Below, one piece after another: positions 9,001 to 18,000 of a stretch of DNA of 64,000 nt. Source of the DNA: Rhina ancylostomus (lineage: Eukaryota). Position numbers: made by a program. The stretch is from positions 25,341,767 through 25,405,766 of the forward strand of contig JARFYF010000022.1 of assembly GCA_030265395.1 (NCBI GenBank), in the 5' to 3' direction. The number at the start of each line of letters is the position of its first letter. Positions within the stretch are counted from its first letter, which is position 1.

Positions 9001-12000
9001 GATGTTATTCTGGCTCGAGGTCCGTGACCAGTGGTTTTTCACAGGGATCAATGCTGGGACCTCTGTTGTTTGTGAAATGTATAAATGACTTGGATGAAAA
9101 TATAGATGGGTGGATTCATAAGCCTGCAGACAAACAAAGACTGTGGAATTGGGGTCAGTGAAGAAGGTTGTCAAAGCATACAGCAGGATATAGATCAGTT
9201 ACAGATGTGGGTAGAAAAATGGCAGTTGGATTTTAATCCGGGCCAGTGTGAGGTGTTGCACTTTGGGAGGTCAAATGTAAGGGGAAAGTATACAGTTAAT
9301 GGCAACACCCTTAGCAACAATGATATACAGAGGGATCTTGGGGTCCAAGTCCATAGCTTCCTGAAAGTGGCCATGCAAGTAGATAGGGTGGTAAAGGAGG
9401 AGTAGGGGATCCTTGCCTCCATTGGTCAGGGCATTGAGCATAAGACTAAGGAAGTCAGGTTGCAGCTATATAAAACGTTGGTGAGGCTTCACTTGGAGGA
9501 TTGTGTGCAATTCTGGTCACCCCATTACCGGAAGGATGTGAAGGCTTTGGAAAGGGTCCAGAAGAGGTTTACTAGGATGTTGCCTGGATTGGAGTGAATG
9601 AGCTATAAGGAGAGGCTGGATAAACTTGTGTTGTTTTCTCTGAAGTGTCAGAGACTGAGGGGAGACCAGACAGAAGTTTATACATTTATGAGGGGTATAG
9701 ATAAGGTAGACTGTCAGAATCTTTGTCCCAGGGTAGAAATGTCAAATGCTGGAGGATGTGCATTTAGGGTGAGAGGGGGAAAGTTTTTACAGGATGGTGG
9801 GTGCCTGAAGCAGGCTGCAGGGGTAGTGGTGGAAGTAGATACTTTAGTGTTGTTTAAGAAGCTTTTAGATAGGCACACAGATATGCAGGGAATGGAGGGA
9901 TATGGATCATGTGCAGGCAGAAGAGATTTAGTTTAATTTGCCATCATGTTTTGCACAGNNNNNNNNNNNNNNNNNNNNNNNNNNNNNNNNNNNNNNNNNN
10001 NNNNNNNNNNNNNNNNNNNNNNNNNNNNNNNNNNNNNNNNNNNNNNNNNNNNNNNNNNGCCTAACCAATCTCTCCCCATAATTAAAGCCCTCCGGTGAAT
10101 CTCCTCTGCACTCTCTCCAGCTTATGTAATAAACAGCAACTTAACAGTGTTAACCAATTTTTTAAATCAAATGATCACTGGTGTGACGTTCAGGGAGGTG
10201 ACTGACGCTGTTGATGAGTGACGTAGAGGGTGTTAATACTTACACAGCTCCTGGCAGCTCACGCCATTACCCAGGCATTTGCACAGCATGCGGGTGTTGC
10301 CTTGCATCTTGAGCCACTGCATTCCATCAGAGTACAAAATACCTCCATCACTGATACACTGGTGATGGTAAACTGCGGGAATGACTTGGTGCTGTAACTG
10401 CCTGGCAGAATCTAGAAAACAAAGGTTTTATTAAAAGAATGGCTGACACCTATTTCCAGTAAACAAGTTCATATTTCTATATAACACAGAAGGAAGCCAT
10501 TCAGCCCATTGAATCTATGCCTATCCCATCCTCTGCTTAGTGACCTGTGACCTATTCTCTTTTGCATGCCCACCAACTCCCTCCGATTTTCCTGCCATCC
10601 ACCTATACTAGTGCCAATTTACACCAGCCAAGTAACACACCAATCAGCGCAGCACGTTTTTGGCATGTGGGAGGAAACCAAAGCACCCGGTGACAGGGAG
10701 AATTTGCGAACTCCACACAAGCTGATCACTCACCATTTACAGTGTTATGCCTACTTTTCTATCCATTTTGAATTAATGCGAGAGAAAGTTTAGGTGGGAG
10801 GTGGGCAGTAAGTTCCCTTTGTTCCATAAATAGGGCTAAACAAAGAATCAGACATGATCCTATTGATTGGCAAAACATGTTCGAGGTGACGAATCCCTGT
10901 TCCTATCCCTACTTGAGGTCTCTTAGTACGTGTTTCTCAATCTCAGTGGAGAACAAACCTCCTTTCCAAGGTTGTGGACTCATTTGTTCATGCCTTCTTC
11001 CTATCATTAATTAAAAATTATTGATCAGGTAGGCAAGTACTCTGTTCAAGAGAGTAGTAGAATTTCCCCAGGTTGATCCCTGGGATGGTGGGCTTGTTGT
11101 ACAAGGAGAGATTAAGCAGACAGGGCCTATACTCAGTGTAGGAGGTATCTGGACCACAGCAGCAAAGTAACAGCTCTGCCATTTGGGATAGAGGTAAAGC
11201 AACATTTTCACCTAGAGGGTAGCAGATCTTTGGAATCCTCTACGCAAGTGACCCATAGAGGCTTAGTCGCCAAGTACATTCAAGACACAGATTGACAAAT
11301 ATTACAGAAATCGAGGGATACAAGGGTCAGTACAGGAAAGTGACACGGGCAAAAAGTCTTGATGAAGAGCAGAGCAGCCATGATGGAACAATTGGCCTAC
11401 TCTTGCTCATATTCCTTATGTTCCAGGAGGCCAAAGTTTATAAATTTGATCCAGCATTTCCCATTTGTCAGCCAATAAAAAGCCTTCAATATGGCAGGCA
11501 GGAAGAGAAAGTGGCAATGAGGGAGAGATGGGCCAGCTACCATGTTGGTTATAGGTCCAGATTCTCAAAATGGACATCAGGCTCCTTCCACAAGTCAGCC
11601 TGAAGTTGCCACTGCATCACCAGCTGCACTGAGGTCTAAATGCCACCTTTATAGAAACCCTTCCAGACATAAAATTTTAAATATTCACAGCTACAGGCCA
11701 CTGCTCCTCAACCCCCCTCACTGATCCCACTTACATTCCCTCCCAATCTGGGCAATGTCTCAGTGGCAACCTCCCCACTCATATCCCATTGCTCAACACC
11801 CCTAACAAAACAGCCCCAAGTATGGGACATCTTCTCTAGCAAGCGACTGAGATACACCAACAGGCTGTCTATGACTTGGTGACAATGAAAGCCTGCTGCC
11901 TAATGTCAGTTGGCCCTTGGGCTTAACAGTTCAAGGGCAGGGATAATTTTAACCTAATATTCTTAGGCCTGTATCTGCCTGCCTCTTGAATTCTAATTGA

Positions 12001-15000: not shown

Positions 15001-18000
15001 AAGCCCACACTCACCATCCCACACTCCAATGAGCATTTTGAGAGATACTTTTGTTGGTGTGAACAGTGCTTTGGTTAGTCTAGTGGGCAACACTTAAAGT
15101 GTCAGCAATTTCATATTCATGCTGCTTTGTGTTAGACCAGGTTGATGGAGGAGGAGCAGGAAGGGGTAATTGAAGGTGCAATCCCTGTGGATTGGGGAGA
15201 AAGTAGGGAGTGGGGTTAAATCAGGGATCAAATATTGTCAGCGTTGGGAGGAGGAGCTCAGAAGTGGACTAGGTGAACCTGGGGAATCACTAGGAAGGTA
15301 TGTGATAGTGGATGGGTCCCGTGAATGGGGGTGGAGCACCAGGAGTACTAACGAATGCAACTGGGATTAGTACAAGGTTGGGGTGAAGACCAGGGGAGAT
15401 GGAGGCGCAATCTCAGGGGATTTGTGAAGGAGTCTGCAGAGGGGGCATGGGGCGGGTGGGGTTTACTGATGATGGAGCCTTAGTATAATGATAACAGACG
15501 CCCAGAAAGGGAAGAGGAGGAGGCACAAGAATATTGATGGCCAAACCCCATAATAAGAATAGATCCTGGAGAGATTTGGGGTGCAATATGAAAGGGAGAG
15601 GCATAGGGTCTCTTAACAAGAGAATATTGGCATTCACTGTGAGTAATACCTCACCTGGTGTTCCTTTAATATTAACCGCCCTCAAAGGCAGAATCCCACT
15701 TCCCTCTATGACCTTGCCCAATATCTAATCTGCATCTGCGATGACACAGTTTAAAGTGTTTTCCAAAACAGATGCCCATCAGCCTGGTGATAACAGAAGG
15801 AAATGTGAAGGGAAGAATCCATTGGACATCCGAGCCAGGACTAGAATAAAAGTGCTAAAAGATTTTAAAGATTACAAGGATCCTTTGTGTAACCACACCC
15901 TGAAAATTAGCAGTAGTTATCTTCCCATCATGTTCATTTTCACATCCAATTCTTCGTTAATGCTTTTCCTTACTTGCAATGGTGCAGCTGATCCTTCCTC
16001 TGCCGGCTCCAATGCAGGTGCAGTCCCAGATCATGCCGTCCTTGGGGCGCTCCCAGGTGTCACCAACATGCTGCCTGTTCCCAGTATACTGATCGTAGCA
16101 CATCTCCTCCACTGCAACAAGCAAAACAGTCACAGTCAGGTGGTTAAGCTCAAACAACTGAAGGTCCTTCTGAACAAGGAGCAAGTGTTTGTTCAACGCT
16201 CTGCAAATCCTTGCACCACCCCACCATCACCCACCACCATGGGTCACAACAGCCCTCCATTAGCCTGGCACATTCTTAAAGGACAAGGTCAGTTGCTGGG
16301 TTTACTGATCTATCAGGTGATGTCTGGCTGATTATTTGCGTCGTCAATAGAGGAGCTGAGGTAAGCCTACTCAGCAATGGGTTTAGTCTCATTTTCCTAC
16401 GATACAGGAGGCCATTCAGCCCACTGAGTCTATGCCATCTCTCAGGAATTTCCCATCAGTGGCATTCTTCTAGTTATTTCCCTGTAACCAATTCTCTCTC
16501 ACAGACCCATCAAATACATCCCCACCCCCTCCATGTTCTCCTTCTACCCACCTACACTCAGGCTAATTTATAGCAGCCAATCAACCTCACCATCCACCTC
16601 CCGAGCCGAGCTGCAACACTGCACAGAGGGAAAAGACACATGGCCATGGGGGTTGACTGAAGAGGGAGGGTCTGCAAGTGGCTAGTCACAGGCACGAGTG
16701 ATTCGCTGTCCAGGCAAGGGGTGAAGTAGTTCTGGTCCCAGCTCTGCTCTAAGTTAGGTTGTTGGGATTCAATGACAACGGCATTGATGCGGCAACCTAC
16801 AGAGGAAATAAACAGCCATGGCATGACTGGTGCATTTCCCTGCCTGGCTGACAGCCATTGTGGGATGTGAGAGAGTGTGGGGGTAGGGTGAGAGTCCAGC
16901 ACCAATTGTACACAACTTTGTTCAGGTCCAGGTCCATGTCAGCAAGTATAGACATAACCACAGGGCAGTTGCACAGACAGAGCAGGGACCATATAGCCGA
17001 CTCCACTCCAAGCTGGCAAGTTCACATGTACCAGTGTCTTCTGATCCCTCAAAGAAGTTAATGTTTGAAAGTGACTCATCAACAAACCTACGAACAGCTG
17101 ATGATCATGTCAACAAACACAGGAGCAAGGAACATGTTGCAGCTGTGTAAAACTTTGGTTCGGCTGCACTTGGAGTACTGTGTGCAATTCTGGTTGCCCC
17201 ATTACAGGAAGGATGTGGAGGCTTTGGAAAGGGTGTAGAAGAGCTTTACCAGGATGCAGCCTAGATTAGAGGGTATGAGCTATAAGAAGGGGTTCGACAA
17301 ACTTAGGCTGTTTTCTCTGGAGCAGAGGCTGAGGGAAGACCTGATAGATGTTTACAAGATTATGAAGCATAGACAGACAATCAGAATCTCTCCCCTCCCC
17401 CCACCCCCCGAGATAGAAATGTCAAGTACTAGAGGACTCATATTTAAGGAAGAAGAGGGAAGGTTTAAAGGAGATGCAAGGGGCTATTTTTTTCCCTCTT
17501 ACACAGGTGCCAGGAATGGGCAGCTCGGCAGAGTGGTGAAGCAGATAGAGGCTATTAGATTGACACATGAATATGCAGGGAATGGAGGGATTATGGATAA
17601 TGTACAGGCAAGCAGAGAATTAGTTTGGCTCAGATATTGTGGGCCAAAAAGCCTGTTCCTCACCTCCACCCGAGCAGCCTGCCTTGCTCTCCAGAATTTC
17701 TGCTCCTTTTCCTGTTTCTCCCAGTGTGGTCAATGCCAAGAGAAATTATGACTGATGGACAAGAAACTGCTTTGTGCAAAAACCCCTGATCCCAAAAGGC
17801 AGTACTTCATCACCTTCCAAATCACCCCCTCTAGTTTTAGAGCACCCAGGCAGCAAACCTTGAGAGAATCATGGCAATATTTGAAAGAGATAAATCATCA
17901 ACCAACATGTTGGTAACTTATGATCAATTCAAAGCTGGCACAAGGCCCTTCATTCAGCTTAACCTCACGTCAAGAGGGTGCATGGACTTGGGCACACTGA

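What the first reader, a model, noticed from the sequence alone, without database searches (positions are those of the whole stretch)
10244..16111. Five intact fibronectin exons nested in intron 8 of choline kinase alpha, on the same strand
Seen: between chka exon 8 (18549) and exon 9 (5820) lie FN type I modules 2-6 in native order, with introns, GT-AG sites, phase 1-1 junctions, all four Cys per module and no stops. I found no signal-peptide exon or module 1 between 16112 and 18548, and no type II exon between 5821 and 10243. Known: FN1 is normally a large stand-alone gene, and these modules make up most of its N-terminal fibrin/heparin/matrix-assembly region. Inference: retained introns rule out retroposition. 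This is either a DNA-level duplicated FN fragment (raw material for exon shuffling, or a truncated FN) or a misplaced contig. The intact coding state means the sequence is under selection somewhere or was copied recently. Misassembly is at least as likely as real nesting.
Basis: partly seen in the sequence, partly recalled or inferred. Interest (0 to 1): 0.75.

Follow-up and report, generated by a model that had tools for sequence, protein, structure and literature searches.

The report
Fibronectin exons inside choline kinase intron
Five intact fibronectin exons really do lie inside an intron of the choline kinase alpha gene in this draft, shark-like assembly, but they probably got there by an assembly error or a very recent DNA copy, and the host gene cannot read them in frame.

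Summary
Five minus-strand exons (16111-15974, 14957-14826, 13618-13481, 12275-12117, 10411-10244) each encode one fibronectin type I module. They are modules 2 to 6 in native order, with phase 1-1 junctions, AG/GT splice sites, four Cys each and no stops. They lie between two consecutive chka exons (18633-18549 and 5820-5712) on the same strand. No other FN module is present in the 64 kb.

New facts:
- A 100-N gap (9959-10058) touches only the 3' side. The 5' side runs gap-free to chka exon 8.
- The exons sit in a block with GC 0.46 against 0.37 for the rest of the window, ending in a sharp step at about 18003.
- Decayed LINE fragments bound the assembled block on both sides.
- The chka intron is phase 2, so every FN exon hits a stop if spliced after chka exon 8.
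- I found no promoter-like CpG island, start exon or end exon.
- Module 3 is 43/43 identical to human, so the copy is either the working fn1 gene or very young.

Verdict: unresolved from one window. My estimates are assembly chimera about 0.55 and real recent DNA-level insertion about 0.35. Interest is low to moderate.

The parts
15974..16111 (-). FN type I module 2 exon (138 nt, phase 1-1)
   Evidence: for boundaries and frame. Pfam fn1 55.9 bits. Best PDB match is human 2FnI, 37/45 identical by my count of the printed alignment.
14826..14957 (-). FN type I module 3 exon (132 nt, phase 1-1)
   Evidence: Pfam fn1 54.3 bits. 43/43 identical to human 3FnI.
13481..13618 (-). FN type I module 4 exon (138 nt, phase 1-1)
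   Evidence: Pfam fn1 56.5 bits. Best PDB match is human 4FnI, 32/45 by my count.
12117..12275 (-). FN type I module 5 exon plus linker (159 nt, phase 1-1)
   Evidence: Pfam fn1 58.6 bits. Best PDB match is human 5FnI, 35/45 by my count.
10244..10411 (-). Linker plus FN type I module 6 exon (168 nt, phase 1-1)
   Evidence: Pfam fn1 only 20.5 bits, below the cut-off of 27. Matches human 6FnI at E 2.5e-22, about 30/44 by my count. Full-length representatives carry this module at residues about 260-344.
18549..18633 (-). chka exon upstream of the FN block ('exon 8'); ends with two bases of a codon, so the intron is phase 2
   Evidence: Sequence. Pfam Choline_kinase positions 172-196.
5712..5820 (-). 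chka exon downstream of the FN block ('exon 9'); begins with one base that completes the codon
   Evidence: Sequence. Pfam Choline_kinase positions 190-233. Human CHKA 68 bits against CHKB 55 bits.
9959..10058 (.). 100-N assembly gap, 185 nt downstream of the last FN exon. The only break between the FN block and the contig that holds chka exon 9.
   Evidence: Its flanks do not overlap, unlike 3 of the 5 100-N gaps in the window.
10059..18003 (.). GC-rich block that carries the FN exons (GC 0.459 against 0.367 for the rest of the window)
   Evidence: Change point at 18003, support interval 17850-18184. 0 of 191 equally long windows outside the block reach this GC; their maximum is 0.408. DNA with no repeat match is 0.453 inside against 0.360 outside.
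8614..9958 (+). Decayed LINE copy 'A' (reverse-transcriptase remnants) running into the gap from the chka exon 9 side. GC-rich DNA starts further left, at about 7947.
   Evidence: ORFs. RVT_1 E 2.8e-4, below the cut-off. 60-70% identical to the other copies in the window, and 81-84% to LINE B over the best-aligned stretches. Left change point 7947.
10059..10145 (-). LINE fragment 'C' at the very start of the FN-bearing contig, pointing into the gap tail-to-tail with LINE A
   Evidence: Translation. Weak match to the copy at 63 kb.
17102..17658 (+). Decayed LINE 3' fragment 'B' between FN module 2 and the GC step; same orientation as LINE A
   Evidence: About 70% identical to LINE A overall, 81-84% over the best-aligned stretches.

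Best explanation
The five exons are the organism's genuine fn1 exons 3-7, either that gene itself or an exact image of it. In this draft, short-read-style assembly they have been joined to chka intron 8 by an assembly error.

Proposed error: a repeat-bounded piece of the fn1 locus (about 10059 to 17650-18000) has a LINE fragment at its left end and another near its right end. It was merged on its right side with the chka contig, in or just beyond the LINE tail. On its left side it was left open as a 100-N gap facing another LINE copy.

Shown:
- the exons, their order and their intactness;
- the gap on one side;
- the LINE fragments bounding the assembled block;
- the foreign base composition;
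- the absence of anything that would let the exons be expressed here.

Inferred: that the join near 17.6-18.0 kb is false.
For: 1. Conservation is too high for a long-resident dead fragment. Module 3 is 43/43 identical to human. The others are 37/45, 32/45, 35/45 and about 30/44. 5 of 5 exons keep their splice sites, frame and four Cys.

2. The block is compositionally foreign and unequilibrated. GC is 0.459 against 0.367. 0 of 191 outside windows reach it. The difference persists in DNA with no repeat match, 0.453 against 0.360. There is a sharp step at 18003.

3. The block's assembled left end begins in a LINE fragment (10059-10145) directly at a 100-N gap. The gap's flanks show no overlap, whereas 3 of the window's 5 100-N gaps have overlapping flanks. 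Its right end carries another LINE 3' fragment (17102-17658) in the same orientation as LINE A across the gap. That is how a repeat-bounded contig would look.

4. At 7.9 kb the block is the size of a typical contig here, where contigs run 0.5-16.7 kb. The contig that holds it is the largest in the window and equals 7.9 kb of FN plus 8.7 kb of chka.

5. Nothing makes the exons usable in place. The intron is phase 2 and the exons are phase 1-1, and 5 of 5 exons have a stop in the chka-imposed frame. There is no CpG island. None of 9 candidate start exons is signal-peptide-like. No module 1 or type II exon lies in the window.
Against: 1. The join to chka exon 8 is gap-free (no N from 10059 to 26750), so a plain mis-slotted contig does not suffice.

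2. The LINE copies are old, 60-84% alike, so long exact overlaps that could mislead an assembler are not evident.

3. The GC step at 18003 lies about 345 nt beyond the end of LINE B. I found no repeat, duplication or shared k-mer at the step.

4. The scaffold is otherwise sound. The five contigs with chka exons stand in collinear order and orientation.

5. The block shares several repeat families with the rest of the window, so it is from the same genome and not a contaminant.

6. A very recent true duplication predicts almost all the same features.
Confidence: 0.55

Rival explanations
1. Real, recent DNA-level insertion. An 8-10 kb piece of the fn1 locus (part of intron 2, exons 3-7, part of intron 7) was copied into chka intron 8 by segmental duplication or repair-mediated insertion. 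It happened so recently that neither the coding sequence nor the base composition has drifted. The piece is a silent passenger. If its exons were spliced into chka mRNA they would act as poison exons.
For: Gap-free sequence from FN module 2 to chka exon 8 and beyond. No repeat at the GC step that would explain a false join. The LINE copies are too diverged (60-84%) to mislead an assembler easily. The scaffold is collinear for chka. The block shares repeat families with the rest of the window. Introns are retained. Intact exons and unequilibrated GC fit a young copy.
Against: Only one junction is assembled; the other is hidden in a gap. No target-site duplication or other junction signature was found: one shared 10-mer against 1.17 expected by chance. 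It requires a rare event caught very young. A short-read assembler would also tend to break or collapse a young duplicate. No independent copy or species could be examined here.
Confidence: 0.35
2. Retroposition of an unspliced, antisense transcript. A transcript running antisense through fn1 exons 7 to 3 would not be spliced. If it ended at the 3' tail of LINE B, the LINE machinery could copy it into the chka intron, as happens for SINEs that borrow LINE tails or in LINE transduction.
For: LINE B lies on the + strand, antisense to the FN exons, near the right end of the block, with its 3' end at about 17658. LINE A, also on the + strand, precedes the block. Retained introns are compatible with an antisense template.
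Against: GC-rich foreign-looking DNA continues about 345 nt past the LINE B tail, to 18003. No target-site duplication was found. No tandem or simple-repeat tail was found in 5-20 kb: 0 rows. The 5' junction lies in the gap and cannot be seen. An insert of 8 kb or more is long for such an event.
Confidence: 0.04
3. A long-standing, functional nested gene encoding a truncated, fibrin- and heparin-binding fibronectin made of modules 2-6, with its own promoter, inside chka.
For: Intact exons and splice sites. Same strand as the host. Reading through the last donor gives a stop after three more codons (ORF 10233-10427), which could end a short product.
Against: No start exon, signal peptide or module 1. 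No CpG island. The foreign, unequilibrated composition argues against long residence. Module 3 is identical to human FN1, with no sign of the divergence expected of a separate gene. No protein of 98-2000 aa related to the module 6 exon was found in the word-indexed search (a weak negative).
Confidence: 0.03
4. Contaminating DNA from another vertebrate assembled into the scaffold.
For: Different GC content. Very high similarity of module 3 to human at the protein level.
Against: The block's introns hold fragments of the same repeat families as the rest of the window, with matches to 1.7, 5.1, 21, 22, 47, 54, 57 and 63 kb. The other four modules differ from human at 8 to 14 positions each. I do not take this contig for human.
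Confidence: 0.02

Closest known systems
FN1 (fibronectin) gene, exons for type I modules 2-6 of the N-terminal region
   Same: One module per exon, phase 1-1, native order. Each exon's best match is the human module of the same rank. Full-length representatives carry the module 6 match at residues about 260-344.
   Different: Exon 1 (signal peptide), module 1, the type II modules and everything downstream are absent from the window. The exons sit inside a chka intron.
Partial gene copies in segmental duplications, or gene fragments lodged in introns of other genes
   Same: A multi-exon, intron-containing fragment with intact exons but no promoter or terminal exon, in a host intron.
   Different: The parental copy, the copy number and both junctions are unseen here. 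That such fragments are common in vertebrate segmental duplications is recalled knowledge, not tested.
Chimeric contigs or wrongly closed gaps in short-read draft assemblies
   Same: The foreign block starts at a contig end beside a gap, is bounded by LINE fragments, and has its own base composition.
   Different: No repeat or exact overlap is visible at the GC step. The supposed false join is gap-free.
Exon shuffling of class 1-1 modules (Patthy's phase-compatibility rule; passages of PMC8001218 read)
   Same: The modules are class 1-1 and lie in an intron of another gene on the same strand.
   Different: The recipient intron is phase 2, so insertion is out of frame. 5 of 5 exons carry a stop in the imposed frame.
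Truncated fibronectin isoforms ended by intron read-through (migration-stimulating factor; recalled, not looked up)
   Same: An N-terminal-only fibronectin. Reading through the donor after module 6 here gives a stop after three codons.
   Different: Those isoforms come from the FN1 locus itself. They start with the signal peptide and module 1 and extend well past module 6. None of that is present here.

Membership tests
Fibronectin type I domain (Pfam PF00039) | Score above the curated Pfam cut-off (27 bits) | tested here: met
   4 of 5 exons score 54.3-58.6 bits. The fifth (module 6) scores 20.5 bits, below the cut-off, but matches solved human 6FnI at E 2.5e-22.
Fibronectin type I domain (Pfam PF00039) | Four Cys in the C..C.C..C arrangement | tested here: met
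   5 of 5 exons match the pattern. It gave 8 matches among 2056 six-frame pieces, 3 of them unrelated chance matches.
FN1 orthologue, N-terminal region | Each module is most similar to the FN1 module of the same rank, in native order | tested here: met
   Best PDB matches are 2FnI, 3FnI, 4FnI, 5FnI and 6FnI, in that order along the minus strand.
FN1 orthologue, complete gene | Signal-peptide exon, module 1, type II modules and later exons in the same locus | tested here: not met
   No further fn1-like piece (next best E 0.2) and 0 type II pattern matches in the 64 kb. The N runs cannot be searched.
Choline kinase alpha (host gene) | Collinear exons matching Choline_kinase, closer to CHKA than to CHKB | tested here: met
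   6 of 7 candidate pieces hit PF01633 in collinear order. 3952-4062 did not hit. CHKA 68 bits against CHKB 55 bits for the exon at 5820.
Nested gene (a complete gene within an intron) | Own promoter, start exon and terminal exon | tested here: not met
   No CpG island in 10-18 kb: CpG o/e is 0.57 or less in every 400-nt window and 0.21 overall. Of 9 candidate ATG exons with a phase-1 donor, none has a signal-peptide-like core (best 1.95) or a good donor.
In-frame exon-shuffling insertion | The recipient intron's phase equals the module's phase (1-1 into phase 1) | tested here: not met
   The host intron is phase 2. The FN exons are phase 1-1, and 5 of 5 have a stop in the imposed frame.
Processed retrocopy | Loss of introns, poly(A) tail, target-site duplication | tested here: not met
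   Four introns of 1.0-1.7 kb are retained. No tail or tandem repeat. No duplication above chance.
LINE-mediated transduction or tail-borrowing retroposition | Insert ends exactly at a LINE 3' tail and is flanked by a target-site duplication | tested here: inconclusive
   LINE B ends at about 17658, but the GC step is at 18003. No duplication was found. The other boundary is in the gap.
Assembly chimera | No reads or read pairs span the junction, single-copy depth, and a matching hole at the true locus | not testable with these tools
   Only the window is held. Reads, the rest of the assembly and related vertebrate genomes are not available here.

The most novel reading that the evidence does not exclude
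The nesting is real. A very young, intron-containing copy of fibronectin exons 3-7 has landed on the sense strand of chka intron 8, an exon-shuffling intermediate caught before decay. Because class 1-1 modules sit in a phase-2 intron, any splicing into chka would create poison exons, so the copy could already be affecting chka output. A bolder sub-case is that it was carried there as an unspliced antisense transcript primed from a LINE tail.
Probability: 0.35. Interest if true: 0.5.

Novelty: not a real feature. Interest (0 to 1): 0.25.

Why it matters
If the join is false, the value is practical. The fn1 gene model of this assembly will lack exons 3-7, chka may receive spurious exons, and the join near 17.6-18.0 kb should be broken.

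If the join is true, it would be a rare snapshot of how mobile class 1-1 modules first reach a foreign intron. It would have an instructive twist: the intron phase is wrong, so the modules could only act as poison exons until further change. Either way the case needs reads to settle it, not more sequence gazing.

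Tried and rejected
- **Word-indexed protein search, 'longer', with the module 6 exon.** 2 candidates, none significant. It covers only 98-2000 aa, so full-length fibronectins were out of reach. This is a weak negative.
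- **Representative search with the same exon.** 52 hits. The best identity was 76% over a part of the exon and 70% over most of it. Full-length hits carry the module at residues about 260-344. None was close enough to be the same species. The hits are unnamed and some may be human fibronectin, so I did not fetch, read or use their sequences. Whether this species' own fn1 protein holds identical exons stayed unchecked.
- **Target-site duplication between 7600-8700 and 17550-18300.** One 10-mer against 1.17 expected.
- **Shared k-mers between the block's left end or the left contig's end and the 17.65-18.25 kb junction.** None of 10 nt or more.
- **Local repeats at 17.4-18.6 kb.** Only short, imperfect pairs.
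- **Tandem repeats in 5-20 kb.** 0 rows.
- **Rfam over the window.** 0 matches.
- **Whether 7947-8613 belongs to LINE A.** No match to other copies, so the left GC step remains ambiguous.
- **Whether the 100-N joins follow chka exons, i.e. transcript-guided scaffolding.** By eye I saw no chka-like ORF in contig 26851-29210, so I dropped the idea.
- **Helitron or other DNA-transposon capture.** Considered, but one boundary is in the gap, so it was not tested beyond looking at the 18.0 kb junction.
- **Paper searches (listings and abstract starts only).** Nothing on fibronectin exons in chka or on this kind of nesting in cartilaginous fishes. This is not proof of absence in print.
- **Collections not usable here.** The genome, phage, plasmid and E. 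coli collections hold no vertebrate DNA and were not used.

Full report
**What is there**

On the minus strand there are five exons, at 16111-15974, 14957-14826, 13618-13481, 12275-12117 and 10411-10244.
- All five have lengths divisible by three.
- All five are open in one frame only (offset 2, i.e. phase 1 at both ends).
- All five have AG acceptors behind pyrimidine tracts and GT donors.

I searched them one exon at a time throughout. I never built, searched or folded the joined five-exon product, so nothing here rests on a spliced model.

Family and module identity:
- Four of the five pass the curated Pfam cut-off for the fibronectin type I domain. The fifth scores 20.5 bits against a cut-off of 27.
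- Against solved structures, each exon's best match is the human fibronectin module of the same rank. My counts from the printed alignments are:

| Exon | Human module | Identity |
|---|---|---|
| 16111-15974 | 2 | 37/45 |
| 14957-14826 | 3 | 43/43 |
| 13618-13481 | 4 | 32/45 |
| 12275-12117 | 5 | 35/45 |
| 10411-10244 | 6 | about 30/44 |

- A profile built from the five modules found only these five among all 2056 six-frame pieces of the window. The next best E-value was 0.2. A type II pattern found none.
- So the window holds modules 2-6 and no other part of fibronectin. The N runs cannot be read.

**The host gene**

The window holds what looks like the whole chka gene on the minus strand.
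- The first coding exon lies at about 53.5-53.8 kb, in the only CpG-rich contig (CpG o/e 0.74).
- The last exon lies at about 0.8 kb.
- Six of seven candidate pieces hit Pfam Choline_kinase in collinear order.
- The exon ending at 18549 and the exon starting at 5820 are consecutive. They cover profile positions 172-196 and 190-233, and their residues are contiguous in human CHKA.
- CHKA scores higher than CHKB, 68 bits against 55.

The numbers '8' and '9' are by analogy with the human gene.

1. *Gaps.*
   - The window has 12 N runs.
   - One of them, 9959-10058 (100 N), lies 185 nt downstream of the module 6 exon.
   - There is no N from 10059 to 26750, so the FN exons and chka exons 8, 7 and further upstream are on one gap-free stretch.
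   - Three of the five 100-N gaps have flanks that overlap each other by 20, 35 and 12 nt. That means abutting contigs.
   - The gap at 9959 has no such overlap.

2. *Composition.*
   - The FN exons sit in a block of GC 0.459, against 0.367 for the rest of the window.
   - None of 191 equally long windows outside the block exceeds 0.408.
   - The right-hand change point is sharp, at 18003 with a support interval of 17850-18184. A weaker one lies at 7947.
   - Recognisable repeats do not explain the difference. DNA without any repeat match is 0.453 inside against 0.360 outside.

3. *Repeats.*
   - A decayed LINE copy ('A', + strand, 8614-9958) runs into the gap from the left.
   - A LINE fragment ('C', - strand, 10059-10145) runs into it from the right, so the two point tail-to-tail.
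   - A third fragment ('B', + strand, 17102-17658) lies between module 2 and the GC step.
   - The copies are only 60-84% alike.
   - The block's introns share several other repeat families with the rest of the window. The block therefore comes from the same genome. I do not take it for human or for a contaminant.

4. *Reading frame.*
   - chka exon 8 ends with two bases of a codon and exon 9 supplies the third. The intron is therefore phase 2, while the FN exons are phase 1-1.
   - By the phase-compatibility rule for module shuffling, they cannot be inserted in frame. The rule is established knowledge; I read passages on class 1-1 modules in PMC8001218.
   - In the frame that chka exon 8 imposes, 5 of 5 FN exons contain a stop (frame 1).

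5. *Expression signals.*
   - There is no CpG island in the block.
   - Between 16112 and 18548 there are 9 ATG-started pieces that end at a phase-1 GT. None has a signal-peptide-like core or a good donor.

**Interpretation**

Two findings together exclude an old resident fragment: near-perfect conservation over the distance to human, and a base composition that has not equilibrated with the host intron. Two readings remain:
- the working fn1 exons, put here by the assembler; or
- a very young DNA-level copy.

I favour the artefact, at about 0.55.
- For it: the block begins at a contig end beside a non-overlapping gap. It is bounded by LINE fragments. It has the size of a typical contig, and the contig holding it is the largest in the window. 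Nothing in place would let the exons work.
- Against it: the join to chka exon 8 is gap-free. The LINE copies are too diverged to explain an easy false overlap. The GC step lies about 345 nt beyond the LINE B tail. I found no repeat, duplication or shared k-mer at the step. The scaffold is otherwise collinear for chka.

Other readings:
- A real recent insertion (about 0.35) predicts nearly the same picture, and I cannot separate the two from one window.
The boundary does not sit at the LINE tail and there is no target-site duplication, so I put it at about 0.04.
- A long-standing nested gene and contamination are each unlikely.

**Searches beyond the window**
- The word-indexed protein search reaches only 98-2000 aa and found nothing.
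- The representative search found 52 relatives, none close enough to be the same species. Their sequences are unnamed and may include human fibronectin, so I left them unread.
- Whether this species' annotated fn1 carries identical exons therefore stays unchecked.
- No vertebrate genome collection is on hand. The chka intron of related species, the rest of this assembly and the reads could not be examined.
- Three paper searches (listings only) turned up nothing on this arrangement.

**Verdict**

The nesting itself is more likely an assembly artefact than biology, but at no better than about 3:2. Interest is low to moderate unless reads show the junction to be real.

Noticed in passing
window 26731-26870, 29176-29345, 54799-54926: Three of the five 100-N gaps have the last 20, 35 and 12 nt before the gap repeated directly after it. 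These neighbouring contigs overlap, and the gaps are placeholders of zero or negative true length.
   Followed up: partly
window 52689-54814: This is the only CpG-rich contig (CpG o/e 0.74 against 0.10-0.27 elsewhere). On the minus strand at about 53484-53828 it holds an ORF that looks like the first coding exon of chka (the resemblance is judged by eye and recall, not searched). It is probably the chka promoter island.
   Followed up: no
window 8614-9958, 17102-17658, 35909-36779, 50402-51811, 55946-56731 (-), 62910-63228: At least six decayed copies of one LINE family, 60-84% alike, with reverse-transcriptase remnants (RVT_1 E 2.8e-4, below the cut-off). They account for most of the GC-richer patches in the chka introns.
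   Followed up: partly
window 9959-10058 and flanks: LINE A (+) and LINE C (-) point into the gap tail-to-tail, and both still lack their 3' parts. The true gap is therefore probably several hundred bases, not 100. An inverted pair of LINE tails may itself be why the assembly broke here. Nothing was filled in.
   Followed up: partly
window 10233-10427 (-): Reading through the donor after the module 6 exon gives a stop after three further codons. Intron retention would therefore end a product immediately after module 6. There is no evidence that this happens.
   Followed up: no
window 19100-22430: Pfam Choline_kinase positions of about 120-150 are not covered by any piece I tested. One small chka exon should lie in this interval, but I did not locate it.
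   Followed up: no
window 57979-58236 (-), 62575-62823 (-): ORF remnants that by eye resemble reverse-transcriptase segments of LINE families other than the one above. Not searched.
   Followed up: no
window 10470-10719, 13804-14126, 16406-16592, 47145-48074: Short interspersed-repeat-like fragments of one family occur three times inside the FN block's introns and again at 47-48 kb in a chka intron, at 62-79% identity.
   Followed up: partly
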